From IMG/VR virus record IMGVR_UViG_3300007516_000067, positions 1 through 34,193 of that record: a DNA stretch of 34,193 bases; one strand, given 5' to 3'. The first letter of the stretch is position 1. The number at the start of each line of letters is the position of its first letter. Positions 7,110 through 33,713 of the stretch are shown one piece after another. The stretch is from a virus (lineage: Duplodnaviria > Caudoviricetes). Below the pieces are notes generated by a model that made no database searches, was not told the origin of the DNA, and saw nothing but the letters and a program-made list of their open reading frames with translations. Made by a program: the position numbers and the translations under genes.

Positions 7110-8996
7110 TTAGTACTCGATTACCGCTGCTGTTGCTCCACCTGTGGTGTCACGGAGGGCTGCTGCCACACCGTTGACCGAGATGGTCGATGTTACGACA
7201 AGCGACTCGATACCAAGCTTGGCAATACCTTCGAAAGTTTCAACGAACATTTTGTAGTCGTTGGTTCCAACAAGGGTAGAGTCACGGATGATTCCGAGAT
7301 CCAAGGTACCACCGTCGAGGAACAAGAACGTTCCTTCAGCGAAAATGTACCATGTGAATGTGTCTGCGAACTCGCCGAGTGCGGCAGTACCCTGTGAGCC
7401 ATAGACGCTCAGGTCGTATGAGAAAGTGCAATCAACTCCGCGATCAGCGAGGTATCCATCAATTTGCCCACCAGCACTCAATGTGCTGTCACCAGGCGCC
7501 GACAGCGTGAGGTCAGCAACCATTGCATCTTTGATCCACGCTGGTGCGATTACGCGCAAGCGCTGTGAAGGATCAAGACGATGGCGGCTTCGCATCGCTA
7601 CGGCTGCACGACTGACCTGAACAAGGAAGTCACGGGCAACGCCGATGAGGCTTGTTGTCGTAACTGCTGTTGAACCAGCGGTCAGTTGGGCTGCCAAGTA
7701 TTGCTCGGCTTCACGGGCGTGCTGAACCAGAGCCAACTCGTTGTGACGAGCAATCAGTTCTGGGTAAGCGCGTGTCATGAGGTTACCGAACTGCAGTTGC
7801 AGCGTAACGGCGTCTGTGAGGACGGTTAATTCCGTTGCTGAGGCTACAGTCAAGCTTGCCTTTGTGGATGGCGCGTCTAGCGAAATATCGTTTGCAGCGG
7901 TCCACACAGCGACTGCGCCAGCATAGCTGGAGAGTACTGGTGGAGCGATGTAACGAATACCACCACGGTCGGCGGCGAAACGTGGAAGCGAATCGCGAAG
8001 TGGTCGGTCAGTTGTGCCAAAACCGAAGATGTCGTACTTGACTTCATGCGGTGTTGAGAAACCACCGGAAGCGACAAGCGCTTCTGGCGATGTAACTGCC
8101 TTGATCTTCGCAACGTTGCTAGCCGCATCTGTCGTGAGAACACGCGATTCTGGGTACTTCGTTGTGATTGATGCTACGATGTGCTGTTCGCCATCGCCGC
8201 CCTTTACACGGCGCAAACCATGCAAACGAGCCGCCATTGCTTCAGCGATATCGTTGGAATCTTTCATTGTTGAACCAGCCGTGTAACCTGGGATGTCAGC
8301 ACCAGCAGTAATGACTGCTAGTTCGAGGACTTCCCGCGCTACTGGACGACGGTCTTCTGGGACTTGGATTTCTACTTCCAAGATTGTTTCATTAACGGCG
8401 GCAGCCACGATGACTTCCTGACCTTCCTGCTCATCTAGAGCATTGCTATCTTCTTGTGTGAGTGTGCTTGCTTCGGCCACAACTTCTGGCGTAACTACCG
8501 CCTCTGTCGCAACTTCTACGATTTCTTCTGCTGTCTCTGTTGAGAGTTCCGCGGCCTCAATTACTTCTGTCGATGCCTCTGCCATTGTTGTTTCTGTTGC
8601 AATCTCTTCTACCGCAAATACTGGGGCTTCAGCGATTTCTTCATCTTCAGTAACTACCTCTTCTTCGAGGGCTTCTAAAGCTACTTCTTCTGGCATTTCT
8701 TCTGGCATTTCTTCTGGCATTGGCGCTACTTCCTCATCTGCTGCTTCACCTTTAACACGCATTGTTGCTTCGGATGCGCGTACTGCGAGTTCTTGTGCAA
8801 GAGCTTCGCGACGCTTACCTTCGGCACGTACGGTGTCAAGCATGTCAGCAAGCTGAGTCATAGCGTCGACTGTCTGTAATGTTGGCTCGTTTCCCTCAAC
8901 CGTTTCGAACTCTGAAACAATGTCAGCTTGCAGCGCGACAACTTCGTCGTCTGTAAGATCAGCCATTGCATCAAGCTGTTGTATAATACGGTCCAC
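7110..8996 (-). CDS. Major capsid (hexamer) protein with N-terminal coiled-coil/acidic scaffold-like region
   Basis: GTG start with SD GAGGAGGG; ~200-aa Glu-rich N-terminus; core begins ALVASGGFSTPHEVKYD and includes LPRFAADRGGIRY and GTLDLGIIRDSTLVGTNDY..F.E.FEG. Confidence 0.9.
   Translation of the reverse strand: MDRIIQQLDAMADLTDDEVVALQADIVSEFETVEGNEPTLQTVDAMTQLADMLDTVRAEGKRREALAQELAVRASEATMRVKGEAADEEVAPMPEEMPEEMPEEVALEALEEEVVTEDEEIAEAPVFAVEEIATETTMAEASTEVIEAAELSTETAEEIVEVATEAVVTPEVVAEASTLTQEDSNALDEQEGQEVIVAAAVNETILEVEIQVPEDRRPVAREVLELAVITAGADIPGYTAGSTMKDSNDIAEAMAARLHGLRRVKGGDGEQHIVASITTKYPESRVLTTDAASNVAKIKAVTSPEALVASGGFSTPHEVKYDIFGFGTTDRPLRDSLPRFAADRGGIRYIAPPVLSSYAGAVAVWTAANDISLDAPSTKASLTVASATELTVLTDAVTLQLQFGNLMTRAYPELIARHNELALVQHAREAEQYLAAQLTAGSTAVTTTSLIGVARDFLVQVSRAAVAMRSRHRLDPSQRLRVIAPAWIKDAMVADLTLSAPGDSTLSAGGQIDGYLADRGVDCTFSYDLSVYGSQGTAALGEFADTFTWYIFAEGTFLFLDGGTLDLGIIRDSTLVGTNDYKMFVETFEGIAKLGIESLVVTSTISVNGVAAALRDTTGGATAAVIEY
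8685..8720. repeat. Perfect 12-bp tandem repeat x3 (ttcttctggcat), encoding MPEE x3
   Basis: Read directly at 8685-8696, 8697-8708 and 8709-8720, in the acidic linker of the capsid protein. Confidence 0.95.
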
Positions 8997-9128
8997 TGTC
9001 CCTCCTCAAGGGTCAGTCACGATAAACTCCTGATAAGTCTATCTAGGGCTTCTGTCCACGAGAGGGACCCACACGCAATGCGTAAGGGGCACTCACTTGT
9101 ATATTACAATAACCTGTCTATACTGGTG

Positions 9129-12100
9129 CTATGTCAGCAACCGCAGCAGCGTACTCAACTCGGAAGACACTTCCCCTTGAGAGTAGACATCACTACCAGA
9201 TTTATATGACTTTAGACTAGCAGTTGCTTCGTCTGCGTCTTCTTTACCAATCTTCGCTTCAACCTTGTCGATCATGTCGTCGATCAGATTCTGTAGCACT
9301 GGTGGAAGATCACTAAACCTGACTTTTTGATTCTGGTTTCCAAACGGCAGTGGCAGGTTTGAGATTACTTGACCTAGTAAACGCGCAGATTCCCTAACGT
9401 TTCCAAGGGCTGTAGCATCTAATGCCCCTGAATCTAAGCGGCTAATGAGCTCTAATAGCTGCGCAGATGATGATGATGCTTGGTCGTAGTTTCCGGCGTT
9501 TAGCAGCACATTGGCCTCTTCTGCTTTATCCATTACGTTCTGCAATCCAGCAGCTCCAAGATCAGATTTAAGTCTGGCCAGCACATCGCGGAACTTTCCA
9601 CGCGAATCTCGCGGTTGAGTTATCCCGGAAACGTATTTTCCATTTACTTTACTAACTGCTTCTGGGGCTGCATCTTCGTCAATAACTTCAGAATCTTCAA
9701 TCGGTAAGGCCGCTAAAAGCCCCTCTTTTGCTGATGCTACTCTGGCTCGGAGGTCATCTAAGCTGTTGACTACGACAGGTTCTGGCACTGGCAATGATGC
9801 TACACGAGCTCTAATGCTGTCGACAACGTCGTCATCGATCAGCGATGCTGTCTTCCAATGCTCAGGAATCACGCTGACTCTCTTGAGCTTACGGGCGTGC
9901 TTCATAATATGCCTACGTACCATAGCTCGTTTGCCTGGCGTGGCACGGCCATAGGCGCTAATAGCCCGCTCGAGATCAGCAGAATCACGAATCGGGAATG
10001 ACCCGTCTGGGAGCGCTTTGCCTTCTTCTGCAAGCCGCGTACGAGCTGCCTTTGAAATGTAGCCAAATGAACCGTACTCAATGTTACTGCGAAGTCTGGC
10101 CGATACTGCGTCTGCCGCAGCGGATAGCTCTAGTTTTTCTTTTCTCTCAAGCTCAGCAATTCTAGTCGACAGCTCGTTGATTGGGTCGGCCTTCATTCTT
10201 GCGAGAACGGCGGCACCGGCAGCGACGAGAGCGTACACTTGCCCCGACGCAACTCTTGCACGGGCGATTGGGAAACCTGGAACGTTGACTTGGCAAACAG
10301 CCACTAGTTCAAGTGCTCCGTTGATTGGGCGCCAGTCGCCTGACGGCGCCGATGCCCGCAACGCTCTGATCTGCTCCATTGTTGCATTCGAACGAAGTGC
10401 TCCAGCTACCCAAATACCGTACATGTCTTCTCCAGCATGGACATCGGCAATTGCAGAACCAGTGTCATCATAGTGACGAGCAGCGTCAACGGCACTTGCC
10501 TCGAGCGACGCGTGGCCACCAGCAAGCGTTAGCTGGCCAACAGTGTAGTCTTTACCGTCATCGGCTCGCACGACTCCAGTGTGGAAGTACGCGTACCCTG
10601 TGCGGCTCTTCGGTGCACGAGTGCCTCGAGACATTCCGATGTGATCTGTCTGCCATGACGCAATGTGGCCGAAAACTCGGCCTAAGTCATCAACTGCAAG
10701 TGGCGTAGGTCCCGCAAGCTTGGGATCTGAAAACCATTCAGCCGGCGGCACCGCTGGGATGGCGCCAGCAAGAAGTCCGCAGGCAACAATTGACGCAGCA
10801 TCAATCTGGTCAATGTTTTCTTCGACGTAGATACCGTCTGGCATCTGTTCCATATTTTCCTCCAATAACGTGCTATCTGCTGTATCTAAATATATCTTAC
10901 ATTCTTGAAATGCCGGCTTCGGGACAACCGTAACGGCCATAACTCTCGCCTTTGTTATTGTCATCTTATCACCACCGATTTTCTTATCTTTCGGTGAATC
11001 AGCGGCCTCATCACTTGCTTTTTCGACGATGTCTTCACTTGCTTCAAAGTTGTCTAGATCAGCAGACACGCCACTAATGAAGCCTTCGCGTACCATTCTC
11101 TCGACTTCTTTTCCGTGCTCGCTTCTGTCGAATACGCCGTAGGCGTTTCCAATGCCACCTTCAACTCGTTCCATCGAATCGATCCGTCCGACTACGACAG
11201 AACCACTATGCCCGTCAGCAGTTGAAATCTGCCACAGTAGCGGCAGCGGCAACTCGCGGATCTCAATTGCGCCCTTCTTAAACTTTCGACCGTCACCAGA
11301 TTCGATGTCCTCTGGAATGACAAGTGGAATTGAGAACTTAGCTCCGTACGAATCTGTTTTTTCCGCGGAAGCGATGATCCTATTCTTAGCTACAGTTGCA
11401 CTTGCCTTAGAGTAAAGTGCTTCTAGAAGTGCTTCTTCGCTGATTAAAGTGCAGTCGCCAGAGCTTACTAAGTTCCTGTTTTTCTTTCCAATGTTGTTTC
11501 TACTACCTGGCCAAGTACCTGTTGCCTCTTTGTGCCGAAGAGCACAATATCCTTTTGCGCGTGGACCCATGTACTTGGCGAGGTGCTTATAGCAACGAGT
11601 CCAATCGCCTGGAGTGTTCCATCTAATCTTTAGAGCTCCACGACCGTACAACCAATAGCGCCGCAGCTGCTCGGCTTTCCCGCGGTTTCGATCAAGACCG
11701 CCGGCGGCTTGCACCGGATTTGGATCAGACTCATTGGCTACGCCGTCAACTTGAGCGAGAACATCAATATATTCTTCTCCGTGTAACGGTACGACTGGGG
11801 GCGGGGTCGCCGATGAAAGGTCAGCAAGAATTTGATCGTCTTGAACCCATGCTGCGTTCACTCGCTTAAACACTGTCGGTCTTGTCAAGTTTGTCTGCGC
11901 TGGAACGATCGAGATTAGATCAAACACCGCTGAAGGATTGTCAGGTGAAACAATCGCCAAATACATTGGCTGCACGTCTGACGTTGTTGGCGTTATGCGC
12001 TTTCCAGCACCTTTGTCATTCACGCCTTCTTTTTCAATAAGCTCTTTTACTGTTCTTGGCTTTTGCTCGTCTACTTCAACAGCAAAGGCAGACGCCCGAA

Positions 12101-13778: not shown

Positions 13779-14124
13779 CTGATACAACAATATCCTGTGC
13801 AGAATCGTCTGCTTCTACTTTAGTTAGACGGATAACTGGCATCTCTAACGGCACTTTCTTGCCAGCCTTTTCTAGGTCATCGAAATACTTAATATAGTGC
13901 ACACCAACGCGTTCGTTCCACAGTAAATCGCCGGCGTCGTCATGCTCTTCCCAGAACAGTCCATTGAGCTGAGCCCAAGTCCCGTTGTCTCGGACAAGAG
14001 TCATTTTCATCTCAGCAGACGAAAAAATCAAATAGCGAACGAACCCGTCCGCGTTGTCGACTACTGCGTAGAGATCATCTCCTTCGATAAGCTCTGTTGG
14101 CCATACTGTGTTATCCTGTGCCAT
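13771..14124 (-). CDS. Hypothetical head-cluster protein (117 aa)
   Basis: Fills the gap between the giant gene and the protease, and its stop overlaps the protease start; resembles a module repeated inside the protease. Confidence 0.75.
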   Translation of the reverse strand: MAQDNTVWPTELIEGDDLYAVVDNADGFVRYLIFSSAEMKMTLVRDNGTWAQLNGLFWEEHDDAGDLLWNERVGVHYIKYFDDLEKAGKKVPLEMPVIRLTKVEADDSAQDIVVSDD

Positions 14125-14147
14125 TTACTTCTCAATCCTATGCAATG

Positions 14148-26100: not shown

Positions 26101-29100
26101 AGATCGGTATCAGTAGGGCGTTTTGCTGCTGCGATGAGTCTGTAAAATGCGGCTGCAGTAGTTTCACTGTACAGACTGTCAGTGCCATTGGAAATATCAC
26201 TCTTCCCCGTGATAAACTCCGGGAAGCCGCCAAACTTCTTGTGAAGAGCATAGTATTGTTCTACGGCCATTTCGTGTGCAGCGTCTTCACCAATACCGGG
26301 GTTCTCAACGTCTACGAACGATCTAATCGCATCAATAATCGACATACGTGAGCCGGGCGTTCCAGTCTCAAAGTCAGCTAAGTCGCCATCTCCACCATCA
26401 ATCGACATGAATAATCCCCAGAACGCTCTAAACCCGTCTAACTCTTGAGGATCGTCACTTCTTGACCACGGAAGGTGCGAAATAAAGTCATTTGTAAGCC
26501 GCTCTAGTAAGCCTTCGTCACCGTAACCATAGTATATTGCATCCATCTCCATGTCAACGCGCATCTGCAGATCGGTTGCGAGCTCGATAATATGTGGGTT
26601 TGTTTCAGTGTGATTAGAAATAAGATTGAATGCTGTGCGTGCATTTTCTGGTTGACCAAGAAGCCCGTTCAGAGCCTGCGCTTTTTTCGCTGCTTCAATT
26701 CTCTCACCAACCGTGAGCTCATCGTCAATGGCGCCACTTCTCCAAATATTCTTTTGCGCGTTTTCTACATTTGTAGGCACGCCGCCGTCTTCTGTGAGAC
26801 CACGATCGTAGATGCCTGAGAGAATGGCCGTGTCGTTTACTCCACTTATTGCGAGAGCCTCAAGTAGCGCCTCAGCCGCAACAGGCTCGTTCCCACCTTG
26901 AAACTCAAGCTCGCCATATCCTGTCGCGGGCACGCCATCTTTTGGCAGAACAGCCTCTGAAAGTGCCTTCGCCAATTCTAACGGCTCAAACTTCGCAGAA
27001 AGAACTTCTGGATCATCAGTGTAGTCTGCGCTGTCTTGATTTGTTCTACCTTTTGGACTGTACGCTTGAAAGATATCTGGACGATACGCGCCTTCTGGAA
27101 CTGAGAATATCCCGTCAAACATTTCTTTATCAAACGGCATTTCAATGTCATCGTCATTGAGCCGGTCAGTCGGTGCTGTGCCTCCATCATCGTAGAACTT
27201 CGGTTTAGCGTTACTAATGTTGTCAGCTTGCCAGAGTTCGAAGTTTGCGACGTCGTCTAGTGGAACAGCAAAAGTGACAACGGCGTCCCCATCTGGAGTC
27301 TTTTCGTTGAGTACCATGACTCGCACGTTTGGAAACTTTTTCATGAAATCGCTAAGAATTCCGTCAAGAGTTTCATCAACGTTGACAATCACGTCAACGT
27401 CAGAGATCTTTGCTGGTTCCCCGTTAAGTCCTGTGCTCCCCGGCGCGTGTGGGCCTTTGCCTACAGGGGCGGGCTCACCTGGTGATACTAGAGGCGCTGG
27501 CCCGTATGTTGACTCGTAGAGCTCGCGCTCTTCGCGGGGTGTCCGTGTTTTTTTATTCTTCAACCACGCTATACGCTTCTCGCTATCATCACGTATTTTC
27601 TTAATTAAAGCGTCCTGATATGCTTTTTCCTTCGCAGCCTCGCGCTCTTTCCGCTCAATATCCTTCCTAATGCGCGCTAAAGCTTTTTCTGTGTAGCTAA
27701 CTAGCTCCGGATTCCCAGCTGGGATCTCGCTCTTTAGCTGCTCAATCACTTCCTTTGCGTCTATTGGAGATGGGGTATCCCGCAGGTCAGACAGTCCCGG
27801 GTATCGCCGTCTAAGGTTGCCGAGCTCAGCCTCCTCCTCGCGTGTTAGTGTTTTTTTGTCTTGTAATTCTCGTAACCGCTTTTTACGAGCTGCTTCCTCT
27901 GCAATTAGCCGCTCTGTCAGCCGCATACTTTCACGCGCTCTAGCGTCTGCTTGTTCTTTTGTTTCCGGCGCTCCTGGCTTAGCCGGCTCTATTGGAGATG
28001 GGATGTCTTGTTGAGTGATTGCTGGTACATACGGCCCTGCCCACTCGGAAGGAGGACCAAGCTTTGGTTTTTCGTAATACATTGGCGTGCCGCTAGCGCC
28101 AGGCTCTTTATAGACCGGTCCGCCTGTGCGCTCATTGATTACGTTTTGTTTGAGTTTGGCGACAACGAACTTATCTTTGGTGATTGCTGTAGTAAGTTCT
28201 TTCCAGGTTCCGAACTTGCCGAGTTGTTTGTTTTTTGTGTCGGGTGTTATTGCCCAGCCCATACGGATTAGCACTGGCGTGTCGCCATCCTCAAGCGTGA
28301 TCGTGTGCGTAGGCGGTCTTGTTGATCCGGGCGCGACGAGCCACGATGGCGGAATGAGCTGCGACTTTAGAACCTTGCCGTCTTTTTGCTCGAGCGGCAC
28401 AGACGTCCAGCCGTCAGGGAGCTTATCAATATCAAACCTAGATTCGAACTGCAGGAAGCCTGTAGGGGAACGGCCGTTCTTTATCGCGGCAAGAGTGTTG
28501 TTCACGTTTGATTGGAGATCGTTGTTGCCCATGCCTCGTGCCGCAGGCTTCATGTGATTATTGACTGCGTCAAGCGTTACCTGTGCGATATGCTTATTTT
28601 CGCCGTCAGGTATAGACTTTGGAATCTCAGTATTCGCACGTGCATTAGGCAGATTTGTGTCAAGCCACGCGGCCACGTTACGAAGCTCAGAAGAACCGTA
28701 GTAATCAGCGATGTCTTCCTCTGATGTCTTGTTGAACCAATTACTCTCTGGATCAAGACCAAAAAATGGATACCATTTATCAGCCGGGACATTTTTCTTT
28801 CCGCCAGAGCCAGTGCTTACATAGAACGGTACATCAACGCCGTTTATATTGACAATCGTCATTGGTCTTTTCGATACGTCAACGACGCGTGACATAACAG
28901 TGTTTCCGTTACTGTCAACTACCGGAATTGGCACTGACACCGCAGATGACATTTCAACGCCAGTATCAATGTCACGCCAGTTGGTGAGTGAGAACGGGTC
29001 AAATATTTGCGGTGTTGTTGTGAGTGTTGGTGCTTGGGCTGGTGGTTGCGCTGGGCCGTCGGGGGCGTAGACGGGCGGTGACATCTTGTTGAGAGTAAAT

Positions 29101-31343
29101 GTCCGGCCTTCGCCGTCTGTTTCACTAAAACCAGTAACATTAGTTGCGTTGGTTTTAGGATTCAGATACATTCTTTCCGGTCGGAAAAGTCTGTTTTTCC
29201 CGCCGTAACTAAATGTGACGACTGCTCCGACGTCGATTGCTTCTTGGATTAGGTCTTTGATTTCGGTTGGATCGGTTGAGGTGATTGCGATTGGTTCGCC
29301 TGTTGTGCGAGGTGGAGCGATCTTTGCTACTGGCTTAGCGGCTGGTCGCGCCTTCAGAGCCGGAGGCGAACTGATCTTGTCGAATGAGTACGTGCGCTCT
29401 TCGCCAACATCAAGGTCAAAACCAACAACGTTGCTCTTGCCGGTTTTTGGATTTACGTACGTGTCTTTAGGAAGAACTCTACGTGTTTTTCCACCATAAC
29501 TAAATCGAACAACATCGCCTTTTTCATCGGCGGCACGAAATTCTTGTGTAAGACCTCGCATAGTGTCGGCACCGTGCAAGTCTCTTACAGCCCCAGATAT
29601 TTTTTTGTAAGAATTGACAGTTTTTTGTGCGGTTTCTTTTCTTGTCTTTCCAGTTTCTCTGTACCCGTCTTTCTTTGCATCATAGACGTCGTCTCCGCGG
29701 AACCAGGCCGGGCCGCCGCTACCGCCGCCGCTGCCATCTATCATTTCATACAATGTTTCGCCGGAACCAAACTGGACAGTTCCTTTGATGTCTTTAGTGG
29801 CATTCTTCAAACCCTCAAGCTCAGCAGGGGACAGCTTTGACGTCACAAATGACGAAGCTTCCATAACCGCATCTGATACATTGCGATCGCCGTCAGTTGC
29901 TTGGTCAACTGCGTTACGTAGGTTTGACTCAGTTCCAGTAAGCCGCACCGTCCCGTTTGGCTGAAGTGCGAGTTTGACGCCTGGAGCATTTTGCTCCGCC
30001 CAGTCGGCGAAGTCCCCGTCTGTGAGATCAGCTTCGTCAGTTGCCCAGTTTACAACAACTGTTTTTTCTGGTGCCATGTCGTCAGCATCAGACTCGGCGA
30101 TATCTTCTTCTTGCGCGTCAAAACCGGGGGCGCCAATTCTAAGAGCTTCTTGACCGGCAGGACTATCAAGATACTTTTGATAGTTATCTTGGTCTTTTAG
30201 AATCGCCTTTTCAACGTCAGCCCATGTAAAAAGTGCAGACTTATTAACCGATGTATCCTGTGGCCCAAACGCTCTTACAATCCACGCGCCGTGTGCTGGG
30301 AGCAGCGATATGTCGTCTGCTTCTGTGAACTCGGCACTGCGGCTCGTGACAACTGTGTACCCGTCGCTGTTCGCGTAGATGACGCGGTCGAGGACGCTGT
30401 CATCCTTGCGGGGAATTTCTTTAATGATGCGCCAATCCGATGGGGCAGCGCGTCTTACCAGGTCTTCGGTGTTAATCGAGAATTGCCAGTCTTCAGACGG
30501 TACAGCAACTTCTTCCGCTGGTGGCGCTCCCCGCTTGCGGCGCACAATCGCTTTAACAGATAATCCCTTAGATGCCTCAACGGCATATATTCCGTCAGGA
30601 AGTGATGAGTCGCCCGCCACCTCAACTTCAACATCATTAGTTCCAGACATACCAACAACGCGGCCAGCTATTCTGTAATGATTTCCACCGCGGAGCATGC
30701 CAAACAACCAGCCACCACCCATAAATGCGAATCGGCCGATCCTGTCACGACGCTGCATTCGTGCGCGAAGTGACCTTGCCGCATTCGAGTTTCCACCAAG
30801 GCCGAGACCGAGAGCTGCAATAAGCGGCTCTAAGTCGACGCTTACTGCGATTGGTACTACGCCTAGGGGGAAAGCAGCGAGGCGCGCGAATGCGTGTGTG
30901 CGCTCGATTGAGCCATGCTCGAACGAGTACGCGGTTGCAACAAGTGCCCGTGCTTCATCGCTACGAATCAGTTTATCGGCGGAGATCCATACTGCCTGCG
31001 CATGTCGTAGAGAAGCCTCTGTCATCGAGTGCCTCTTTGTTGACAGCGGGTGGCCAACTGAAAGAAGATCAGAGTTATTCAATGCTGCTACTGTTACTTT
31101 GTTTACAGCAGCGAGCGAAACGAAAGCACCAACAGCACGCAGCGCCGAGAACACTCGTACCTGGCTTACGCCACCGCGGCTTCTCCTAAGTGCTCTGTTT
31201 GCGACTTCAACTGCTGCGCCAAGCGAAACTCTGCGCTCCAAACGCGTAGATGTGTTTGCCGCAGAAAGCATCGCAATAATAGCATCGCGCAAGCGAACAA
31301 GCTCATACGCGCTTAGTGTTTTTTTATTTTTTCTATTTGACAT
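14148..31343 (-). CDS. Giant polyvalent multi-enzyme protein (5731 aa), putatively virion-associated
   Basis: Uninterrupted 17.2-kb ORF, co-oriented and tightly packed in the head gene cluster; many recognisable catalytic motifs (listed separately). Confidence 0.93.
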   Translation of the reverse strand: MSNRKNKKTLSAYELVRLRDAIIAMLSAANTSTRLERRVSLGAAVEVANRALRRSRGGVSQVRVFSALRAVGAFVSLAAVNKVTVAALNNSDLLSVGHPLSTKRHSMTEASLRHAQAVWISADKLIRSDEARALVATAYSFEHGSIERTHAFARLAAFPLGVVPIAVSVDLEPLIAALGLGLGGNSNAARSLRARMQRRDRIGRFAFMGGGWLFGMLRGGNHYRIAGRVVGMSGTNDVEVEVAGDSSLPDGIYAVEASKGLSVKAIVRRKRGAPPAEEVAVPSEDWQFSINTEDLVRRAAPSDWRIIKEIPRKDDSVLDRVIYANSDGYTVVTSRSAEFTEADDISLLPAHGAWIVRAFGPQDTSVNKSALFTWADVEKAILKDQDNYQKYLDSPAGQEALRIGAPGFDAQEEDIAESDADDMAPEKTVVVNWATDEADLTDGDFADWAEQNAPGVKLALQPNGTVRLTGTESNLRNAVDQATDGDRNVSDAVMEASSFVTSKLSPAELEGLKNATKDIKGTVQFGSGETLYEMIDGSGGGSGGPAWFRGDDVYDAKKDGYRETGKTRKETAQKTVNSYKKISGAVRDLHGADTMRGLTQEFRAADEKGDVVRFSYGGKTRRVLPKDTYVNPKTGKSNVVGFDLDVGEERTYSFDKISSPPALKARPAAKPVAKIAPPRTTGEPIAITSTDPTEIKDLIQEAIDVGAVVTFSYGGKNRLFRPERMYLNPKTNATNVTGFSETDGEGRTFTLNKMSPPVYAPDGPAQPPAQAPTLTTTPQIFDPFSLTNWRDIDTGVEMSSAVSVPIPVVDSNGNTVMSRVVDVSKRPMTIVNINGVDVPFYVSTGSGGKKNVPADKWYPFFGLDPESNWFNKTSEEDIADYYGSSELRNVAAWLDTNLPNARANTEIPKSIPDGENKHIAQVTLDAVNNHMKPAARGMGNNDLQSNVNNTLAAIKNGRSPTGFLQFESRFDIDKLPDGWTSVPLEQKDGKVLKSQLIPPSWLVAPGSTRPPTHTITLEDGDTPVLIRMGWAITPDTKNKQLGKFGTWKELTTAITKDKFVVAKLKQNVINERTGGPVYKEPGASGTPMYYEKPKLGPPSEWAGPYVPAITQQDIPSPIEPAKPGAPETKEQADARARESMRLTERLIAEEAARKKRLRELQDKKTLTREEEAELGNLRRRYPGLSDLRDTPSPIDAKEVIEQLKSEIPAGNPELVSYTEKALARIRKDIERKEREAAKEKAYQDALIKKIRDDSEKRIAWLKNKKTRTPREERELYESTYGPAPLVSPGEPAPVGKGPHAPGSTGLNGEPAKISDVDVIVNVDETLDGILSDFMKKFPNVRVMVLNEKTPDGDAVVTFAVPLDDVANFELWQADNISNAKPKFYDDGGTAPTDRLNDDDIEMPFDKEMFDGIFSVPEGAYRPDIFQAYSPKGRTNQDSADYTDDPEVLSAKFEPLELAKALSEAVLPKDGVPATGYGELEFQGGNEPVAAEALLEALAISGVNDTAILSGIYDRGLTEDGGVPTNVENAQKNIWRSGAIDDELTVGERIEAAKKAQALNGLLGQPENARTAFNLISNHTETNPHIIELATDLQMRVDMEMDAIYYGYGDEGLLERLTNDFISHLPWSRSDDPQELDGFRAFWGLFMSIDGGDGDLADFETGTPGSRMSIIDAIRSFVDVENPGIGEDAAHEMAVEQYYALHKKFGGFPEFITGKSDISNGTDSLYSETTAAAFYRLIAAAKRPTDTDLARVIGIDKDSESFKNYTTPGFIFAIDPRAHSVVASDSDGTASDTLITVGRKLSRVVFKIKAGDADGISVSGFSHYFENEVMTVGEFIVDAVREQDGFFGKEYVVQLKKYVKEQPNIPEESAAPAAPNAPASAFAGIRQYGDVSDWTRSEEGPSGSNAGGVHTDDDGNEYYVKTAKSQSHGEMEALGSAFYKELGITAGETGLGEQYGELAIITPMIPGSTTGMYSLRDDKEFVAKIQEGFAIDAWLSNYDVIGMEYDNIIVDTNGNPVRIDQGGSLIWRARGSHKEWFGPEVAELTSMRDPRINATAGRVYKSMSPAQLTDSARKLLDIKPSRIDEIIDGAISDPEQSASLKDVLKRRREYILDFYGIKETTEDPFANRVPLTESIGYAAQDLQANDVTAADSFVIERVFRDETTPKGKVSIQGYFPGHESQRKEWNDATVIPVARGGTIPPKGDRPALHRPQKPRATGSPAFTGVAADAVANAKTWQEAADAIRALDIVFLDYETTGLPGPEAGGLNRPVQIGAVRVKDGKVVDSISIYMNPEHELSGWSAAALKQQDGTSPVTNEWLAGQLSMKDAHQQFLDFVGEGPVIIGGQNVPFDIEILQRVLKEQGLSIEISGTVDSKDISAGTLPKWTQGKPDGPSLTNKETGKTRASNSLGPIAEYLGVKLPDWHRADADAQASWEITDAMLTRAVSNPDTPTTLLNNKEEVERQRVGAEKFTKEMQEYEVALADYVAAKAIAAAWNCGGAGITAAVGPGDGPCSTPDIPSLIRDATPEPLGDPDPDDFPSGLVESQTTDNAVHDGIDTNDPYKDEAFMPTEEQRNILDAILAGKNVVVQALAGTGKTATLLIAGKRKKKEKKSEKGVYIAFNKSAQVEAEKKFRDAGLTNIEVITNDAISYRWSSKEMQAKFSRTENVVQYKKIADLFGITEFEATDGEMLKLRAAVKEFRDAVNAFMISDDAELSAKHFGDGDGAGKPWMVDIAQKMWEDYINPDGKMRVTNTVLTKMWGLSKPDLGKTGSGLSRGVDFIFFDEAQDINPVSGKVIADQTVQKVYVGDENQAIYGFRGGENQLGKVLESEEFPLTKSWRFGSVIANEGNKWLRLLESDPRVADSKGLRVIGGNVNPGSIVEQGSLADTANAVLVRTNSGGLGAIYDQLGRGRVVGVTKNYKGDLENLRDTAQFLMTGADRPKILHDELAPFASWADVVKAVEQGDETKKLKLFVDLVEEIKIDGVSELIGRLKIVRATGESDAKASNIGDLSLGSTGVLGNGVEYAVDENGPYLTGKTFENKTAIGKSGWDYNKVNDDKKWRVPVKDQDDPAAVRAAVEKLSKALGGSTSEDSGKIDVLVTTVHQAKGLEWDKVWIWGDFFGPRVNKETGEVTMPDPTEYKIAYVAVTRSKDQIDVGSLDWINEYISENEATPESPEAAPRDATSVNADDALVKSLKNAVKEADVQLEKFADLSSKNEKKVKKVRELVEKSLYAYDGGQYVDTEEWLTAASELLEGANLPELQSLFLEAASAADRVRLSKLEVPAQTETQTPPVPTLDPEWRPSDVPAPQGAVPSGTQEAPDDVLPEAIETAENSGDNNALDKTKRFYDTASREKDIELMFNDLEETADIVINGEDSGLKGSDKSVVKKAFEKVKEIRKALADGAMPEHEALAALNAIIDSLPSSGSSSVAQIDMDFFRDAVTAITHVLDGQYYWRPTGKGLPPIDALDPKGRAVGYARDGVTFLVPGTRVRDKWGYAGTVESYNENDWVNVNVRYDIDPRDPAKVKKGKWGAGVARISKHPATLSVIGPDEDPYVELPSTPEGKRPTDLDKQLAWLKKHRGGDPSPKVDAPSGASDKDAKSALGFDVLNFEVVGGQLGANAGGTYKDSDGNLYYVKEQQSLTHAENEILAFELYKELGVNVAQMQIGSGTLNGNIYTVSKFISGDGSTLKKYREDEQVLDKVRSDFAIDAWLANGDAVGHKYANIVVDQDGTPFRIDAGGALLFIGPGHPKGTEFGGTVAELDDMLNIELSEGSAAVFSPMTRAAKAASARKLLGITQERVDEIVDANMSDPETASKIKARLKARREYIFKHYGIQDIDSPQDNYSANAITWGEHLLEPGANLEGADLSDADLSKVDLAGASLIGANLTGAILTEANLTGADLSKANLSFADLTGANLSYADAIGAKLAGANLAGADLSHANIEKADLSEANMIGANLTRTRMFGADMSGVNLSKTELIDVSFSYADLSAANLSEANLRGAKFNSTKLLGTNLSGADLSGAMMLHAKLAGANLTGANMTGASLGGANLAGADLTGATLISIDAQYIKFAGATMPDGKIFDKDTHKFPFPTADEVPEAEAPKAVSEEDAKWLAVKPVADPFKFLDKVEKQYKKKNSKFGREDLNKDNDAIYFAYYGQGGAHDVNTALLDIENADKNTLDNIEKVDRMLTRAPGLEQDILVYRGVGGDSSADATKNLIDVEPGDEFVSVTYSSTSIIKSIAEGFAGGDGGGILLEIVVPKGIRGAFIDAWYGRSMELEAPYSQSFIDDEGAEAELMLPRNMKYRVLSKDGNTIKLVALGPETDKQVAKDYDEKIPLADVSVPDVLETPEAPEAAAPEMPEEFISEMPKPSEQLAAAAEKYGVDISSYFDESFDDDDVEQSTNDFSLGKDKSGKIVAADAVIIKDERYVMMIGRAFGPFRGSYALPGGFLDKGESFADAAAREMQEEVGVPDPIATNVYNIGVVDSFDWDPRALKGAKVGAVVFHVPSDTKHIAGDDAATAQFVDIEDIISGEKAVAFGHATWLKRAFISTEYEAKLDVIVLASKERNARLIAKINDVRTARGYDTIPPAGPNVWTPENESELTDVSTKLQHIYEDFGGDTPYADMNPMVAEFLSIVDTQTNIPPGLRASLSSAVADHMGPLDSVSQDVIDELAGLIKQFSASRSVYSRGFVQEIDGIDRTSWPASLKDEQGISDPKEFFELTGLATILLANSLSEDAGIISGLIVAAADHSMMKAEIDSKSLTANVISSIVTNYVLQGDFDNYTGHRFNATVRNFADNFPQHEEYFAELSEIHESFRHSPGDARNAEQRFKGGRRQVATNQIIYGVNAPALSLSGVPERTDVDGKPISVSEFSGVPSLMGAVSTVLARPASPHGMALSAAVDGDSIDDLDVRVTTIINPDGDTKLRLRFRLTPWAGQKRAMEIEKEGGWTISKPMFRASSRDKDGNIVEDSKYTGPEYAEAFPSGRLYMSFGDDNSEGFDISITRASNRPVDTAPLTTQSAGAPAAFHNEVVIDIDPDNATEEIIIAALKKAGVVDPRAAQPEDAKTLIENKLLSLFYGQVVTEDNLAGEGRAIGLAKIEERYGVTADVTFGMVIVTVGDNGRLQYLFPEYVANSIAEKTGTESFTHSLSIGKAMQAARAKNGSKKLTEKETINVAGDVIAGMIISGLQSTAVRLSEGRGEYKGLSSDEDIYTGGGNYVFLTPRSVPVEHFGKGSKDYIIEASVVFPPANVYNRADLYANIGDSFGKRIRYTEVISASGPNNHETMVKNGLDIANKGNVVFVAGPVYDSALAKLDALGISEINGIPVRELIKVQGTDDYTLKRSVPTPEQTEAIDSALTKLVGNADGVDFKEFRDTFLEIQEVDGAPFAYDWAPAGSKIIAATFKTDSGANRGNLNIVPYIKARAAYSNGAPILIVRWPDGQLVEHRPADLATHQHGQTTSFVIDQFQLNQLIGHLTASEPANFILGGKAIAGEDSTNDYGDVKTVIVPVGQGLLGLPREHDVLYTDESATDLKKYVLDLLEQYDTLFPDNLQMETSTARGMILRLTTLLLGNITPEERSFIIQEVVNRTANTGSINDHDGPMRTSQSNNAFSAVSYDQPIASITASGGSETGSTTLIEYVIPDEGAVIEIVDGEDAGYTRTIYRAKVERVIADKGNQRLYEVSIEGNREGGNVFVLNNENSYDIDKENNEIRFSYRGVRYSIRAKLPSDKPL
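15400..15930 (-). other. Domain: candidate H-Y-E-type ADP-ribosyltransferase-like fold
   Basis: FTHSL...SGLQSTAVR...SSDEDIYTGGGNYVFLT...DSFGK...NNHETMVK: His, aromatic and Glu in the order seen in ART folds. Inference only. Confidence 0.4.
17715..18115 (-). other. Domain: Nudix hydrolase, ADP-ribose pyrophosphatase type
   Basis: Complete Nudix box GGFLDKGESFADAAAREMQEEVG, plus WDPR, AGDDA and AFGH motifs typical of NadM/NrtR-type ADP-ribose Nudix domains. Confidence 0.92.
18390..18900 (-). other. Domain: VIP2/ADPrib_exo_Tox-like R-S-E ADP-ribosyltransferase
   Basis: VNTALL...ILVYRGV...YSSTS...LLEIVVPKG...EAELMLPRN: intact R, STS and ExE. Confidence 0.92.
19110..19770 (-). repeat. Domain: pentapeptide repeat array (~40 units)
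   Basis: A[DN]L[ST][GDE] repeats from GANLEGADLSDADL to FAGATMPDG; visible 15-nt DNA periodicity (aggttggccccag). Confidence 0.97.
19840..20520 (-). other. Domain: HipA/PI3K-like atypical kinase, copy 2
   Basis: GANAGG..YYVK..ENEILA..LY..FAIDAWLANGDAVG..NIVV..RIDAGGAL. Confidence 0.82.
21880..23650 (-). other. Domain: UvrD-like superfamily 1 helicase
   Basis: All main motifs present: TEEQ, ALAGTGKT, AFNK, DEAQD, VGDENQAIYGFRG, SWRF, LVRTN, TVHQAKGLEW, YVAVTRS. Confidence 0.96.
24020..24610 (-). other. Domain: DEDDh (DnaQ-like) 3'-5' exonuclease
   Basis: ExoI FLDYETTG, ExoII GQNVPFD and ExoIII HRADAD. Confidence 0.95.
24995..25680 (-). other. Domain: HipA/PI3K-like atypical kinase, copy 1
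   Basis: GSNAGG..YYVK..EMEALG..FY..FAIDAWLSNYDVIG..DNII..RIDQGGSLIWRARG. Confidence 0.85.
25770..26200 (-). other. Domain: divergent R-S-E ADP-ribosyltransferase candidate
   Basis: DLARVI (R) ... PRAHS ... VVFKIKAG..GISVSGFSHYFENEVMTVGEFIV (ExE); the central STS motif is degenerate. Confidence 0.55.
29078..29560 (-). other. Domains: two tandem WYL-like domains
   Basis: VVRFSYGGKTRRVLP..NVVGFD..EERTYSFDKI and VVTFSYGGKNRLFRP..NVTGFS..EGRTFTLNKM match the WYL pattern F.Y...R.V.P...G....R.F..D.I. Confidence 0.82.
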
Positions 31344-31345
31344 GT

Positions 31346-31972
31346 CTAGCTTTCGATTCTCGGCAACAGATCTGAATTTTTACTATCATAAGTCATTACC
31401 GCAAGTTCACGTGCCTCTTCAAATCCGTTTTTGCCATCATCTACGCCGCGTTTCCACGCCGCACGTAGAGAAGGAATTATCTCATACCCTAGACCACTGT
31501 ATTCTGCGAATGCAACAAGTGCGTGCTCTGGTGATTTGTACGTGCTAGATGTACCAAGCTCAAGCGACATCTCAATGGCAATGGCTCCTCCAGATGTCAA
31601 TGCACTAGACGCTTTAGGGTGCCCTGCTGGAAGAAGATCATTGTCCTGTTTGTAAATTGAATTGGCTGGCGCCCCAGTACGAAGAAGTCTAGTGAACGCA
31701 TTAATGCGCATCATTGCCAGCTCGTGGCGCGTCACGTCGACGTTACTTGACGACAGGTACGTGTGCACGCCGCGGCGATACACTGCCCTTAGCTGTTGAA
31801 GTGACGCCTTGTTGTCTATACTTGCCGTCATATTGTGTTCTTTTACTTTTTCAACTAGCGCTTCTTCTACTGCATTAGAGAAATTGATGTTGTGCATAGT
31901 TGAATTAGACCGTCTGACAAGAAGTCGCAGCGAGTCATCGAACAACTCTGGATCGGTATCTTCTACACTCAT
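31346..31972 (-). CDS. Hypothetical head-associated protein (208 aa)
   Basis: Contains the KVKEHN..LRAVYRRG..AMMRINAF..QDNDLLPAGHP domain, which I recall from phage head gene clusters; lies between portal and giant gene. Confidence 0.75.
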   Translation of the reverse strand: MSVEDTDPELFDDSLRLLVRRSNSTMHNINFSNAVEEALVEKVKEHNMTASIDNKASLQQLRAVYRRGVHTYLSSSNVDVTRHELAMMRINAFTRLLRTGAPANSIYKQDNDLLPAGHPKASSALTSGGAIAIEMSLELGTSSTYKSPEHALVAFAEYSGLGYEIIPSLRAAWKRGVDDGKNGFEEARELAVMTYDSKNSDLLPRIES

Positions 31973-31982
31973 CCTATGTTCC

Positions 31983-33713
31983 TTATTGTCCAGGTGCCGG
32001 TGTAATCATTGATGGGTCAGCGGGAAGTGCGTCGTCTGGCGCTTGTTCGACTGGGGCTGGCGCCTGTTCGGCTGGTGGTGCCGGTGCCAGTTCTGGTGGC
32101 GTAGCTGGGGCACCTTCGAGCATCTGTTGCACCTCAGGCGGAACTGGTGCCGCGCTGCCGGCCTGCTGCGCGCCGCGAATTGCTTTAATAACCTCTGGTG
32201 CAACGGCCCCGAGCATCGCCTCAGTGAGCTCAGGAGTGACTGCACCCTTCTCAATAAGAAGTCTGAGTGCCATTTCGTTCGGTGTTGGCGCGTCTGCATC
32301 AGAGAAACCGTGTGCGCGCCGCCACGTAGCGTATGACACCGCCATACGATCAAAACCATTATCAGCATCCATTGCTCTGTCATTGCGTGTCGCAACTTGG
32401 CTTGGGTCGTACCAAATTGTAAGGCGCTCAACTGCAACTTCGTCAAACCCGTTAGCAATCAGATACGGGCGAAGATACACGATTGTAAGTGCGTCAACAA
32501 TAAGCAACATCAACGGTTCGATGTGGGCTTTGTAGAGTGACTCATCAATTTGCAATGCATTTGAATATTTAACATTCGCGAGTCCAGTGACGATGTCTTT
32601 TGGCACGTCAAGGCCTTGAAGGATCCGCTCAAGCACGCGATCAGCGCGTGCAGCAAGTGCGGGGTCAAATGAGCGCTCGAACTTGAACTGCCTAATCTTC
32701 TCGCCGAGTTCAGCAGGGCCGCGGATAATTAACGGAACAACTGCGGACGCCGAATCCTCGTCGCGGATCGGCGTTGTCATCGCGTCGATTAACTGCTCTT
32801 CGAACTCGTCTGCGCTCTCCTCCGGGTTAAACGCTGGATTCGTATCATCATCGCCGTCAAATGGATAGTTTGGATCTGGTGTGGCCGCGACACTGAGACC
32901 GTCTGGCAAGTACAGTGCACCAGCATTCAAACGCGAACGGGCGGTTGAACGGAACGTACGGTTCAACAGCAACAACTCAGCGCAGAGGTCAAGAAGACCA
33001 CGTAGTGACGAATCGGCCTCTTCTGAGAAGCGTGGATGCGCTCGCCAGATGCGACCAACAAACGCTTTTTTCGGAAGAGTAACAATTCCTTTTCCACCTC
33101 TCGATGAACTAGAACCGCCAGTCAACAGGTCACGCCGTGGAACGATTCCGTACTGGTTCTTTGAGTCAATCTGGATCTCATCAACCGAACGAATATCCCA
33201 CGACTCTGGGATATTAGAACCAACCTGCTTTGGCATTTGTACTAGGTAACATTCACCGGTGACGCTGAGGTTTAGTGCGGCATCGCGGAGAAGACCGGCC
33301 TGACCGCCGTATGCCGAGCTAAGTCGAGCAAGTGCACGCTCGGCGGCGTTTGCTAGACTGGCATCAACAGCATCCGTGTCGCGAACCGATATTGGAGCCT
33401 CGGCAGGGTCATCAATGACTGCTGCGTATAAACGAATTCGCGAAACAACTGATGCTACGAGGCTAAACGCATACTTGATTTCGCCGATAGCGTCATAGTA
33501 CTCCCACGCTTCTGATTGCCAAGTGCTCGATGATGCGGATCGGCGGCTCTTGAACTGCTCTGATTCTGATTTGTTTTCGAGTTGCATCTGCTTTGCCGCG
33601 GCCGTAATCGAACGTGGAGCCGAGTACGAAGCGGATTTGGCGGACGTTGCACCAGTCAACGGCGTGTGCGCTATACGCTGTATCGCTGGTGTGTCTCGCC
33701 TAAATATGGCCAC
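31983..33713 (-). CDS. Portal protein
   Basis: WQSEAWEYYDAIGEIKYA, LNLSVTGECYL, RIWRAHPR..EADS, ARSRLNAGAL and DEDSASAVVPLII motifs of cluster B-like actinophage portals; SD GAGGAG; Pro/Ala-rich tail. Confidence 0.92.
   Translation of the reverse strand: MAIFRRDTPAIQRIAHTPLTGATSAKSASYSAPRSITAAAKQMQLENKSESEQFKSRRSASSSTWQSEAWEYYDAIGEIKYAFSLVASVVSRIRLYAAVIDDPAEAPISVRDTDAVDASLANAAERALARLSSAYGGQAGLLRDAALNLSVTGECYLVQMPKQVGSNIPESWDIRSVDEIQIDSKNQYGIVPRRDLLTGGSSSSRGGKGIVTLPKKAFVGRIWRAHPRFSEEADSSLRGLLDLCAELLLLNRTFRSTARSRLNAGALYLPDGLSVAATPDPNYPFDGDDDTNPAFNPEESADEFEEQLIDAMTTPIRDEDSASAVVPLIIRGPAELGEKIRQFKFERSFDPALAARADRVLERILQGLDVPKDIVTGLANVKYSNALQIDESLYKAHIEPLMLLIVDALTIVYLRPYLIANGFDEVAVERLTIWYDPSQVATRNDRAMDADNGFDRMAVSYATWRRAHGFSDADAPTPNEMALRLLIEKGAVTPELTEAMLGAVAPEVIKAIRGAQQAGSAAPVPPEVQQMLEGAPATPPELAPAPPAEQAPAPVEQAPDDALPADPSMITPAPGQ

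What the first reader, a model, noticed from the sequence alone, without database searches (positions are those of the whole stretch)
8061..33608. Recurring [ILV]-x-A-[AS]-[AG] motif at domain boundaries of head proteins: candidate cleavage code for a polyprotein system
Seen: portal ITAAA (~33594-33608). Giant protein LIAAL (~30810-30824), ITAAV (~23832-23846, between exonuclease and helicase) and ITASG (~14466-14480). Protease IAASG (~13555), ISAAG (~13225), LTAAA (~12760), VQAAG (~11705), IIASA (~11370, just before the catalytic domain) and LVAAG (~10220). Capsid IVAAA (~8400) and LVASG (~8061-8078, at the start of the capsid core). In the protease the motifs bracket individual domains. Known: HK97-type prohead proteases share a fold with herpesvirus assemblins, which cut after (V/L/I)-x-A before S/A. 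Inference: the phage protease trims portal and capsid and cuts itself and the giant protein into separate products inside the head.
Basis: partly seen in the sequence, partly recalled or inferred. Interest (0 to 1): 0.8.

Follow-up and report, generated by a model that had tools for sequence, protein, structure and literature searches.

The report
Actinophage head-protease alanine cutting code
A short alanine-centred signal is strongly enriched and conserved in the head-building proteins of this actinobacterial phage and of cultured relatives, and it is likely where the phage's own herpesvirus-like head protease cuts them, which would make capsid maturation predictable in a large phage family, although no cut has been measured.

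Summary
All twelve listed peptides are at the stated coordinates. The motif is real but unevenly spread. In the window only the 1553-aa protease polyprotein is enriched among head proteins (12 vs about 1.7 expected); the 5731-aa giant protein is not (5 vs 3.8-4.7). Relatives settle it: the motif (aliphatic-Thr/Val/Ile/Leu-Ala-Ala/Ser-Gly/Ala) is enriched in protease, capsid, portal and giant-protein leaders, but not in tape measure, terminase or non-head proteins of two near-complete genomes. The capsid-core site is kept in 17 of 17 named phages, down to about 24% capsid identity. The protease has two protease-type domains: D1 folds like T4 gp21 and herpesvirus assemblins; D2 has its own conserved His/Ser. 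Best reading: prohead-protease sites removing the capsid delta region and portal and cargo leaders and splitting the protease polyprotein (0.75). Wholesale chopping of the giant protein is not supported. No cut is measured. This is a new variant of known T4/phiKZ-type processing. The scan noted this motif before on at least eight other genomes.

The parts
31983..33713 (-). portal protein, 576 aa as called from the first GTG
   Evidence: PHROG 776 portal, E 1e-106
33594..33608 (-). portal site ITAAA (aa 36-40), predicted end of a short N-terminal leader
   Evidence: strict in 27 of 32 and relaxed in 32 of 32 other non-redundant portals; P1 and P1' columns 100% conserved, upstream flank 0.59
31346..31972 (-). 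208-aa head-module gene; its family carries the motif 6-14 aa after a DLLPxxHP domain end; the window has a degenerate LTSGG (31586-31600)
   Evidence: 24 of 33 family members strict within 25 aa, 1.1 expected; window form
14148..31343 (-). 5731-aa polyvalent giant protein (exonuclease, UvrD helicase, pentapeptide repeats, ADP-ribosyltransferase, Nudix)
   Evidence: Pfam and PHROG scans
30810..30824 (-). giant site LIAAL (aa 174-178), predicted end of the leader, 25 aa before an RDxxGRF tag
   Evidence: 34 of 47 homologues keep [ILVM]xA[AS] at this position; 39 of 47 giants have a relaxed motif 10-35 aa before the tag, 12.0 expected
23832..23846 (-). giant site ITAAV (aa 2500-2504) between exonuclease and helicase
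   Evidence: 5 of 5 homologues that cover it keep the loose motif; Pfam domain limits
14466..14480 (-). giant site ITASG (aa 5622-5626) before the C-terminal domain; doubtful
   Evidence: the four relatives with this domain read h-T-S-[AS]-[AG], Ser at the predicted P1
9129..13790 (-). 1553-aa protease polyprotein with 12 strict motifs
13551..13565 (-). protease site IAASG (aa 76)
   Evidence: 9 of 11 close orthologues incl. window; 19 of 45 strict in the wider set
13218..13232 (-). protease site ISAAG (aa 187), weaker
   Evidence: 3 of 11 strict; 13 of 45 strict, 24 of 45 relaxed
12756..12770 (-). protease site LTAAA (aa 341), 31 aa before an RDxxGKF tag
   Evidence: 7 of 11; 19 of 45 strict, 31 of 45 relaxed; tag
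11700..11714 (-). protease site VQAAG (aa 693)
   Evidence: 29 of 47 strict, 38 of 47 relaxed, upstream flank conservation 0.28
11364..11378 (-). protease site IIASA (aa 805), at the end of a predicted helix just before D1
   Evidence: 7 of 11; 17 of 47 strict; model
10887..11345 (-). protease domain D1 (aa 816-968), His861 at 11208-11210, Ser909 (GVSAD) at 11064-11066
   Evidence: Z 10.4 to T4 gp21 (rmsd 3.6, 127 aligned), Z 9.9 to VZV protease (rmsd 3.1, 120 aligned); His 67 of 71, Ser 69 of 71
   Evidence: relaxed motif in 46 of 47; lies in a predicted helix
10266..10703 (-). second protease-type domain D2 (aa 1030-1175), His1093 at 10512-10514, Ser1150 (PSGDW) at 10341-10343; the matches LEASA (1096) and LRASA (1144) lie inside it and are likely structural
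   Evidence: His 71 of 71, Ser 70 of 71; same strand/helix order as D1 in the model; Atlas look-alikes Peptidase_S80/S77, Mu-like protease at 0.92-0.93
10215..10229 (-). protease site LVAAG (aa 1188), after D2 and before a long helix
   Evidence: 46 of 47 strict; a strict motif closely follows D2 in 146 of 149 representatives; low-confidence coil in the model
7110..8996 (-). major capsid (hexamer) protein, 628 aa, with an N-terminal helical and acidic extension
   Evidence: PHROG 777 E 7e-78; 845 phage records, mostly annotated 'major capsid hexamer protein' in the rows shown
8397..8411 (-). capsid site IVAAA (aa 196), end of the acidic linker
   Evidence: relaxed in 120 of 120 homologues, consensus MTAAA, so strict [ILV] only 8 of 120; seen in distant capsids
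8064..8078 (-). capsid site LVASG (aa 307), predicted start of the mature 33.8-kDa shell protein (Ser310)
   Evidence: 119 of 120 strict; 11 of 11 and 6 of 6 named phages; mass

Best explanation
The motif aliphatic-(Thr/Val/Ile/Leu)-Ala-(Ala/Ser)-(Gly/Ala) is enriched and positionally conserved in the protease, capsid, portal and cargo leaders of this phage family, and it is likely the site at which the phage's own assemblin-fold head protease cuts after the Ala during prohead maturation. Predicted outcome in the window: the capsid loses residues 1-309 in two pieces and leaves a 33.8-kDa shell protein starting Ser310; the portal loses about 38 residues; the protease polyprotein is split at its linkers, freeing D1, D2 and small modules; the giant protein loses a 176-residue leader and may be cut once more between exonuclease and helicase, but otherwise stays in large pieces. 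The second domain D2 (His1093/Ser1150) is the more likely general cutter because it stays in motif-bearing phages in which D1 is not found; D1 keeps its His/Ser where present and may also be active. Shown: motif, enrichment, conservation, D1 fold, D1/D2 distribution. Inferred: that cutting happens, the register after Ala, and which domain cuts.
For: Protease enrichment in the window 12 vs 1.5-1.8. Named phages, pattern [ILVM]xA[AS][AG], local shuffles: protease genes of 10 phages 66 vs 12.8, capsids of 11 phages 30 vs 11.2, portals of 11 phages 13 vs 6.9, against tape measure 17 vs 23.4 (7 proteins), tube 1 vs 2.0 (10), terminase 0 vs 1.7 (5), adaptors 0 vs 1.8 (8). Two near-complete uncultured genomes: other proteins 28 vs 29.7 and 19 vs 16.1, protease 13 vs 2.0 and 9 vs 1.9. 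150 protease representatives (clusters at 50% identity): 453 vs 106 outside the conserved core. Both capsid sites line up across 14 capsids at 23-74% identity where flanks do not align; the core site is in 17 of 17 named phages. In the 208-aa family the motif floats 6-14 aa after a domain end in 24 of 33, 1.1 expected, as a recognition site in a linker would. Ser at P1 is not enriched in protease representatives (17 vs 20.0) while Ala is (258 vs 44.2). Head proteins of four actinophages with other capsid and protease types are not enriched (7 vs 4.8), and phiC31's annotated mature capsid starts after Arg. D1 folds like T4 gp21 and herpesvirus proteases; pseudorabies virus sites are given as YLQA-T and VQA-S (PMC4498786). 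D1 not found in whole genomes of KimmyK and GMA2 nor in head loci of GodonK, Forza and Ailee, while MakoManhole, Mask and Lonelysoil are found at E 1e-12 to 1e-42; all five keep D2 and both capsid sites. The 23 of 150 representatives with D2 only are as enriched outside the domain (59 vs 6.0) as the 127 with both (465 vs 34.2).
Against: No measured N-terminus or cut exists in anything I could read. Orthologues are related, so pooled counts overstate independence, and Met was added to the pattern. The giant body is not enriched (13 vs 12.2 in 53 giants; 6 vs 5.5 in 4 named giants), and Atuin's 3113-aa giant has no leader and no strict motif. Some conserved matches are inside folds: LEASA and LRASA in D2, and the tube's LDASG (11 of 12). 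In the model IVACG lies in a helix and IIASA at a helix end. Protease matches 117, 1222 and 1411 are not conserved (2 of 11 each). Pentamer proteins of named phages show 8 vs 3.8. Portals of KingVeVeVe and MakoManhole have no strict motif. The capsid model was poor (mean pLDDT 44), so the position of LVASG relative to the HK97 N-arm is not shown; the Gly-Gly after it could be a structural N-arm feature (recalled, not tested). D2's fold rests on pattern, the model's secondary structure and an Atlas feature match below its recognition mark (2070 of 2300); D1-D2 profile comparison was not significant.
Confidence: 0.75

Rival explanations
1. The motif is a docking or capsid-targeting peptide that binds a protease-fold domain or the scaffold and pulls proteins into the prohead; it is not cut, or the cut lies in another register.
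For: A3Wally and Pumpernickel giants keep the motif on leaders of only about 11-12 residues, like the 10-residue T4 capsid targeting sequence (PMC9026906); two protease-type domains leave room for one to bind only; some sites are predicted helical.
Against: The capsid core site predicts a product of ordinary HK97 size (33.8 kDa); strict Ala at one position with an aliphatic residue two before matches assemblin sites; both domains keep His and Ser. In T4, targeting and cutting share one peptide, so this rival partly overlaps the best explanation.
Confidence: 0.13
2. The matches are a by-product of Ala-rich helices and of conserved fold elements in related proteins, with no common function.
For: LEASA and LRASA are inside D2; tube LDASG is conserved; giant N-terminal hits near 107 and 134 may be helical parts of a shared domain; window counts outside the protease are not significant.
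Against: Ala-richer tape measure proteins are below expectation (17 vs 23.4); local shuffles keep composition; the motif recurs in non-homologous proteins and at variable spacing; enrichment persists outside the conserved core; unrelated actinophage heads lack it.
Confidence: 0.07
3. One reading: D1 (GVSAD) alone cuts, and the giant protein is released as many single-enzyme products.
For: D1 has the confirmed fold and conserved His/Ser; the exonuclease-helicase site is kept in 5 of 5 homologues.
Against: No enrichment in giant bodies; most loose matches in the giant are not conserved; D1 is not found in five motif-bearing phages.
Confidence: 0.05

Closest known systems
Herpesvirus assemblin precursor (pUL26) with release and maturational sites
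   Same: Same protease fold; protease made as part of a longer precursor; predicted sites with Ala at P1, an aliphatic residue at P3 and a small residue at P1' (YLQA-T, VQA-S for pseudorabies virus, PMC4498786, passages read).
   Different: Two protease-type domains in tandem; no Arg-Arg oxyanion loop or second His at the matching strand by sequence; many more predicted substrates (capsid, portal, cargo leaders); P1' is Ala more often than Ser (62% vs 31% of 125 picked sites).
T4 gp21, phiKZ gp175 and SPN3US gp245 prohead processing
   Same: Best fold match is gp21 (Z 10.4); one protease removes propeptides from capsid, portal and internal proteins at a short shared motif, several sites per propeptide, short capsid-targeting leaders, an ADP-ribosyltransferase cargo (PMC9026906, PMC10052503, passages).
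   Different: Those enzymes cut after Glu and occur in myoviruses; here the invariant residue is Ala, in phages with a long tape measure and separate hexamer and pentamer capsid genes; those cuts are measured, these are not.
Polyvalent proteins of phages (Iyer et al. 2017, PMC5512222)
   Same: Giant multi-enzyme protein among virion genes, proposed to be packaged and released by peptidases (passages).
   Different: There the assemblin-like peptidase is described at the C-terminus of the polyvalent protein; here it is in the next gene. No cleavage motif appears in the passages read, and the giant body here lacks the motif.
SEA-PHAGES 'capsid maturation protease' and 'major capsid hexamer protein' families (mycobacteriophage cluster B and relatives)
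   Same: Homologous protease, capsid and gene order.
   Different: Annotated by name only; Podgorski et al. (bioRxiv 2022.09.09.507160, passages) state that the delta-domain cleavage site of actinobacteriophage capsids could not be predicted.

Membership tests
Prohead protease / assemblin fold (D1, aa 816-968) | beta-barrel fold shared with T4 gp21 and herpesvirus proteases | tested here: met
   model pLDDT 85.7; Z 10.4 to 5jbl, 9.9 to 1vzv, unrelated rows at 6.0 or less; Foldseek alone gave E above 0.01
Prohead protease / assemblin fold (D1, aa 816-968) | conserved catalytic His and Ser | tested here: inconclusive
   His861 in 67 of 71 and Ser909 in 69 of 71 rows; superposition on the known catalytic residues was not available
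Pfam Peptidase_S78 (HK97-type prohead protease), D1 | score above the curated cut-off | tested here: not met
   16.9 bits against 21, E 0.007
Prohead protease / assemblin fold (D2, aa 1030-1175) | same fold with His and Ser in matching places | tested here: inconclusive
   matching secondary-structure order and His1093/Ser1150 conserved; Atlas neighbours S80, S77, Mu-like protease, YonD_N at 0.92-0.93 but recognition below the mark; fold searches covered D1 only; hhalign D1-D2 not significant
Herpesvirus assemblins | Ser-His-His triad and two consecutive Arg in the oxyanion loop (PMC4498786) | tested here: not met
   the matching last strand and loop read VTVVPKPAF in D1 and VCQVNVPGF in D2, with no Arg-Arg; register judged from sequence pattern
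Herpesvirus assemblins | cleavage after Ala at aliphatic-x-Ala sites | not testable with these tools
   motif matches, cutting not measured
T4 gp21 / phiKZ gp175 type processing | cleavage after Glu | tested here: not met
   the invariant residue of the conserved sites is Ala; Glu rule from PMC9026906 and PMC10052503
T4 gp21 / phiKZ gp175 type processing | one shared motif on propeptides of capsid, portal and internal proteins, absent from non-head proteins | tested here: met
   as a sequence pattern only
Polyvalent proteins | several effector-type domains in one chain, encoded among virion genes | tested here: met
Polyvalent proteins | packaged in the virion and delivered to the host | not testable with these tools
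   no proteome of this or a close phage found
HK97-fold capsid with delta domain | HK97 fold after an N-terminal extension | tested here: inconclusive
   model pLDDT 44; top Foldseek rows are HK97-type capsids at E 0.04 or worse; Atlas nearest Pfam Phage_capsid at 0.85

The most novel reading that the evidence does not exclude
D2 is an unclassified prohead protease with herpesvirus-like Ala specificity, and its site doubles as a capsid-loading signal: a leader of about 11 residues ending in Leu-Thr/Val-Ala is enough to load a giant multi-enzyme cargo into the head and then release it, giving cluster-B-like actinophages a T4-style targeting and release system with a different code.
Probability: 0.25. 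Interest if true: 0.72.

Novelty: new variant of a known kind. Interest (0 to 1): 0.5.

Why it matters
It would give mature N-termini for a capsid family with 845 records in the phage collection searched, where a structural survey called such sites unpredictable, and the prediction can be checked directly in cultured phages such as Rosebush. It would show a phage prohead protease with the Ala specificity of herpesvirus assemblins rather than the Glu specificity of T4-type enzymes, and it points to an overlooked second protease domain as the enzyme. Multi-substrate head processing itself is well known, so the surprise is moderate.

Tried and rejected
Sequence search of solved structures with capsid, protease, Rosebush capsid and a 14-capsid profile gave no homologous capsid core or protease, so no mature N-terminus could be read from a structure. 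The capsid fold prediction failed (pLDDT 44). Pentamer-versus-hexamer profile alignment, tried to fix the start of the mature shell protein, was not significant. D1-versus-D2 profile alignment was not significant. A complex prediction of D2 with capsid residues 290-323 returned no verdict (score 0.01, mark 0.32). The whole-genome search for D1 is not a fair control because its three positives were in the query alignment; one search replaced it. An unbiased word count outside the protease core was dominated by conserved small domains and did not rank the motif in the top 25. Widening P1 to Ser was tested and rejected as a general rule. Protease matches 117, 1222, 1411 and 1358 and most loose giant matches were rejected as unconserved. 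The Rosebush mass-spectrometry supplement lists coverage only, no peptides or band sizes. Ten literature searches found no paper giving this motif or a measured cut in this family; subscription papers are not covered, bioRxiv supplements were closed, and the GMA2 mass-spectrometry table (PMC4524720 S5) was not opened.


Full report
The window is the head-to-tail module of a tailed phage, read on the minus strand: portal (31983-33713), a 208-aa gene, a 5731-aa giant protein (14148-31343), a 117-aa gene, a 1553-aa protease polyprotein (9129-13790), a 628-aa capsid protein (7110-8996), then a 372-aa gene in the position of the pentamer capsid gene, tail tube, adaptor and tape measure. The closest named record is the lake phage DSL-LC01 (57% protease identity), then Microbacterium phages Pumpernickel, A3Wally, Big4, Cece and Zooman; 1005 records match the protease and 845 the capsid, mostly mycobacteriophages and Gordonia phages. 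An actinobacterial host is inferred from these relatives.

Observation. Two of the three giant-protein examples break the stated pattern, and 13 other strict matches in giant, protease and tube were left out. With global and local shuffles the protease is clearly enriched (12 vs 1.5-1.8), the giant is not (5 vs 3.8-4.7), portal and capsid are too short to judge, and the tail tube is enriched (3 vs 0.2). Because the pattern was drawn from this window, I tested it in relatives.

Relatives. From 103 IMG/VR loci, fetched stretches of five contigs and two named records I built non-redundant sets. Portal site 36 is strict in 27 of 32 and relaxed in 32 of 32 other portals; capsid site 307 is strict in 119 of 120 homologues and site 196 relaxed in 120 of 120 (consensus MTAAA). 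In 47 full-length proteases, sites 693, 1001 and 1188 are kept in 38, 46 and 47 (relaxed), sites 76, 187, 341 and 805 in 24, 24, 31 of 45 and 26 of 47, and matches 117, 1222, 1358 and 1411 mostly are not. Of the tube's three matches only LDASG is conserved (11 of 12), with Asp at P2, unlike the head sites. In 11 named phages the pattern (with Met allowed at P3, added) gives protease 66 vs 12.8 (10 phages; GMA2 Orf12 separately 5 vs 0.3), capsid 30 vs 11.2, portal 13 vs 6.9, pentamer 8 vs 3.8, giant 6 vs 5.5, tape measure 17 vs 23.4, tube 1 vs 2.0, terminase 0 vs 1.7, adaptors 0 vs 1.8. Six more named phages repeat the capsid core site, making 17 of 17. An alignment of 14 capsids at 23-74% identity shows both capsid sites in register while the flanks differ. 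In two near-complete uncultured genomes, proteins without a homologue in the window give 28 vs 29.7 and 19 vs 16.1, the proteases 13 vs 2.0 and 9 vs 1.9. In 150 protease representatives from clusters at 50% identity the count is 880 vs 172, and 453 vs 106 outside the conserved core. Head proteins of phiC31, L5, Che8 and Patience give 7 vs 4.8, and phiC31's annotated mature capsid starts after Arg. These pooled counts are not independent, but the within-genome contrasts and the recurrence in non-homologous proteins do not depend on pooling.

Giant protein and the 208-aa gene. In 49 giants with an intact start, strict motifs run at 6.6 per 1000 residues in the first 200 residues and 0.2-1.3 beyond; with a tighter P2, 58 vs 3.7 in the first 200 residues and 13 vs 12.2 beyond in 53 giants. 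The window's LIAAL is the positional equivalent of a site kept in 34 of 47 homologues; it precedes an RDxxGRF tag, and 39 of 47 giants have a relaxed motif 10-35 residues before that tag (12.0 expected). In A3Wally and Pumpernickel the leader shrinks to about 11-12 residues and still ends in the motif; in Atuin both leader and motif are missing. ITAAV between exonuclease and helicase is kept in 5 of 5 homologues that cover it. ITASG near the C-terminus corresponds to h-T-S-[AS]-[AG] in the four relatives with that domain; since Ser at P1 is not enriched elsewhere (17 vs 20.0), this site is doubtful. The 208-aa family has a strict motif 6-14 residues after DLLPxxHP in 24 of 33 members (1.1 expected); the window's copy is degenerate. 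So the giant likely loses a leader and may be cut at one internal joint, but the code does not separate most of its enzymes.

The enzyme. A model of residues 780-1240 (pLDDT 85.7) shows two beta-rich domains. D1 (816-968) matches T4 gp21 (Z 10.4, rmsd 3.6, 127 aligned) and varicella-zoster virus protease (Z 9.9, rmsd 3.1, 120 aligned), with unrelated rows at 6.0 or less; His861 and Ser909 are nearly invariant. D2 (1030-1175) repeats the order of elements, with His1093 in 71 of 71 and Ser1150 in 70 of 71 rows; its Atlas look-alikes carry Peptidase_S80, S77 and Mu-like protease families, but the recognition value is below the mark, the fold searches covered only D1, and D1-D2 profile comparison was not significant. 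Two conserved motif matches, LEASA and LRASA, lie inside D2 next to these residues and are likely structural. D2 is present in all 11 phages, D1 in 9. A no-filter profile search found no D1 in the whole genomes of KimmyK and GMA2 or the head loci of GodonK, Forza and Ailee, while MakoManhole, Mask and Lonelysoil, not in the named-phage alignment, were found at E 1e-12 to 1e-42; Pfam showed no other protease in the neighbouring head genes scanned. All five keep both capsid sites. Among the 150 representatives, 23 have D2 only (8 with more than 200 residues upstream; some others may be fragments) and are as enriched as the rest (59 vs 6.0; 465 vs 34.2); a strict motif closely follows D2 in 146 of 149. 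A D1 too diverged to detect cannot be excluded.

Mechanism. Most likely the protease polyprotein is built into the prohead with capsid, portal and cargo, and cuts after the Ala of aliphatic-(T/V/I/L)-A-(A/S)-(G/A). That would remove capsid residues 1-198 and 199-309, leaving a 33.8-kDa shell protein, trim about 38 residues from the portal and 176 from the giant, and split the protease chain. Cutting, register and the role of D2 are inferred. The capsid model was too poor to place the site against the N-arm.

Known systems. One protease removing propeptides from capsid, portal and internal proteins at a short motif is established for T4, phiKZ and SPN3US, always after Glu, and T4 uses 10-residue leaders for capsid targeting (PMC9026906 and PMC10052503, passages; PMC7411985, abstract). 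Ala-specific sites are those of herpesvirus assemblins (PMC4498786, passages). Giant virion-linked enzymes are polyvalent proteins (PMC5512222, passages). For actinobacteriophage capsids with long delta domains the cleavage site was called unpredictable (bioRxiv 2022.09.09.507160, passages). PMC7150772 (passages and the whole supplement) gives Rosebush coverage tables without peptides. Passages of PMC4524720, PMC7302621, PMC10611076, PMC10893344 and bioRxiv 2023.05.30.542743 and 2025.11.23.690004 gave nothing on cleavage in this family. Ten searches of the open library found no description of this motif; subscription papers and bioRxiv supplements were not visible. The scan's own notes record the same motif on eight other genomes; these are not independent evidence.

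Verdict. A real, family-wide motif, most likely a prohead-protease site (0.75); a new variant of a known kind. Interest 0.5.

Noticed in passing
window giant aa 199 (about 30730-30750), protease aa 372 (about 12655-12677) and aa 1394 (about 9590-9611): An RDxxG[RK]F tag occurs three times in the head module, each 25-36 residues after a loose motif match; also in relatives.
   Followed up: partly
window 31040-31300 and 31346-31972: The giant protein's first 100 residues end in NSDLLSVGHP and look like a degenerate copy of the 208-aa gene's domain ending DNDLLPAGHP; in relatives both are often followed by the motif. Likeness judged by eye.
   Followed up: partly
window giant aa 1890-2130 and 3605-3835: Two stretches of the giant protein look like copies of one domain; single relatives hit both ranges. 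Not identified by Pfam or PHROG.
   Followed up: no
window 5893-7011 and 4795-5841: The presumed pentamer capsid protein and the tail tube share a Thr-rich domain of about 75 residues (32% identity, E 2e-6).
   Followed up: no
L001:28804-33723 (DSL-LC01); L127:10696-13207 (GMA2): The protease polyprotein is split into three genes in DSL-LC01, and in GMA2, GodonK and Forza D2 is a separate gene; GMA2 Orf12 starts at window residue 982, about 20 residues before the 1001 site.
   Followed up: partly
L129:7565-8158 (KimmyK gp19): A stand-alone protein annotated RNA ligase begins directly with MTAAG; in Ailee a domain of that Pfam family is fused behind D2 in a chain with 11 motifs.
   Followed up: no
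L126:15467-16216 (Rosebush gp17): The proposed outer decoration protein has two strict motifs (0.4 expected); whether an outside protein is cut is open.
   Followed up: no
window 5770-5784: Tail tube LDASG is conserved in 11 of 12 close relatives but has Asp at P2; likely structural.
   Followed up: partly
window 1877-2610: Two overlapping ORFs before the tape measure gene sit where tail assembly chaperones lie in relatives; a programmed frameshift was not checked.
   Followed up: no
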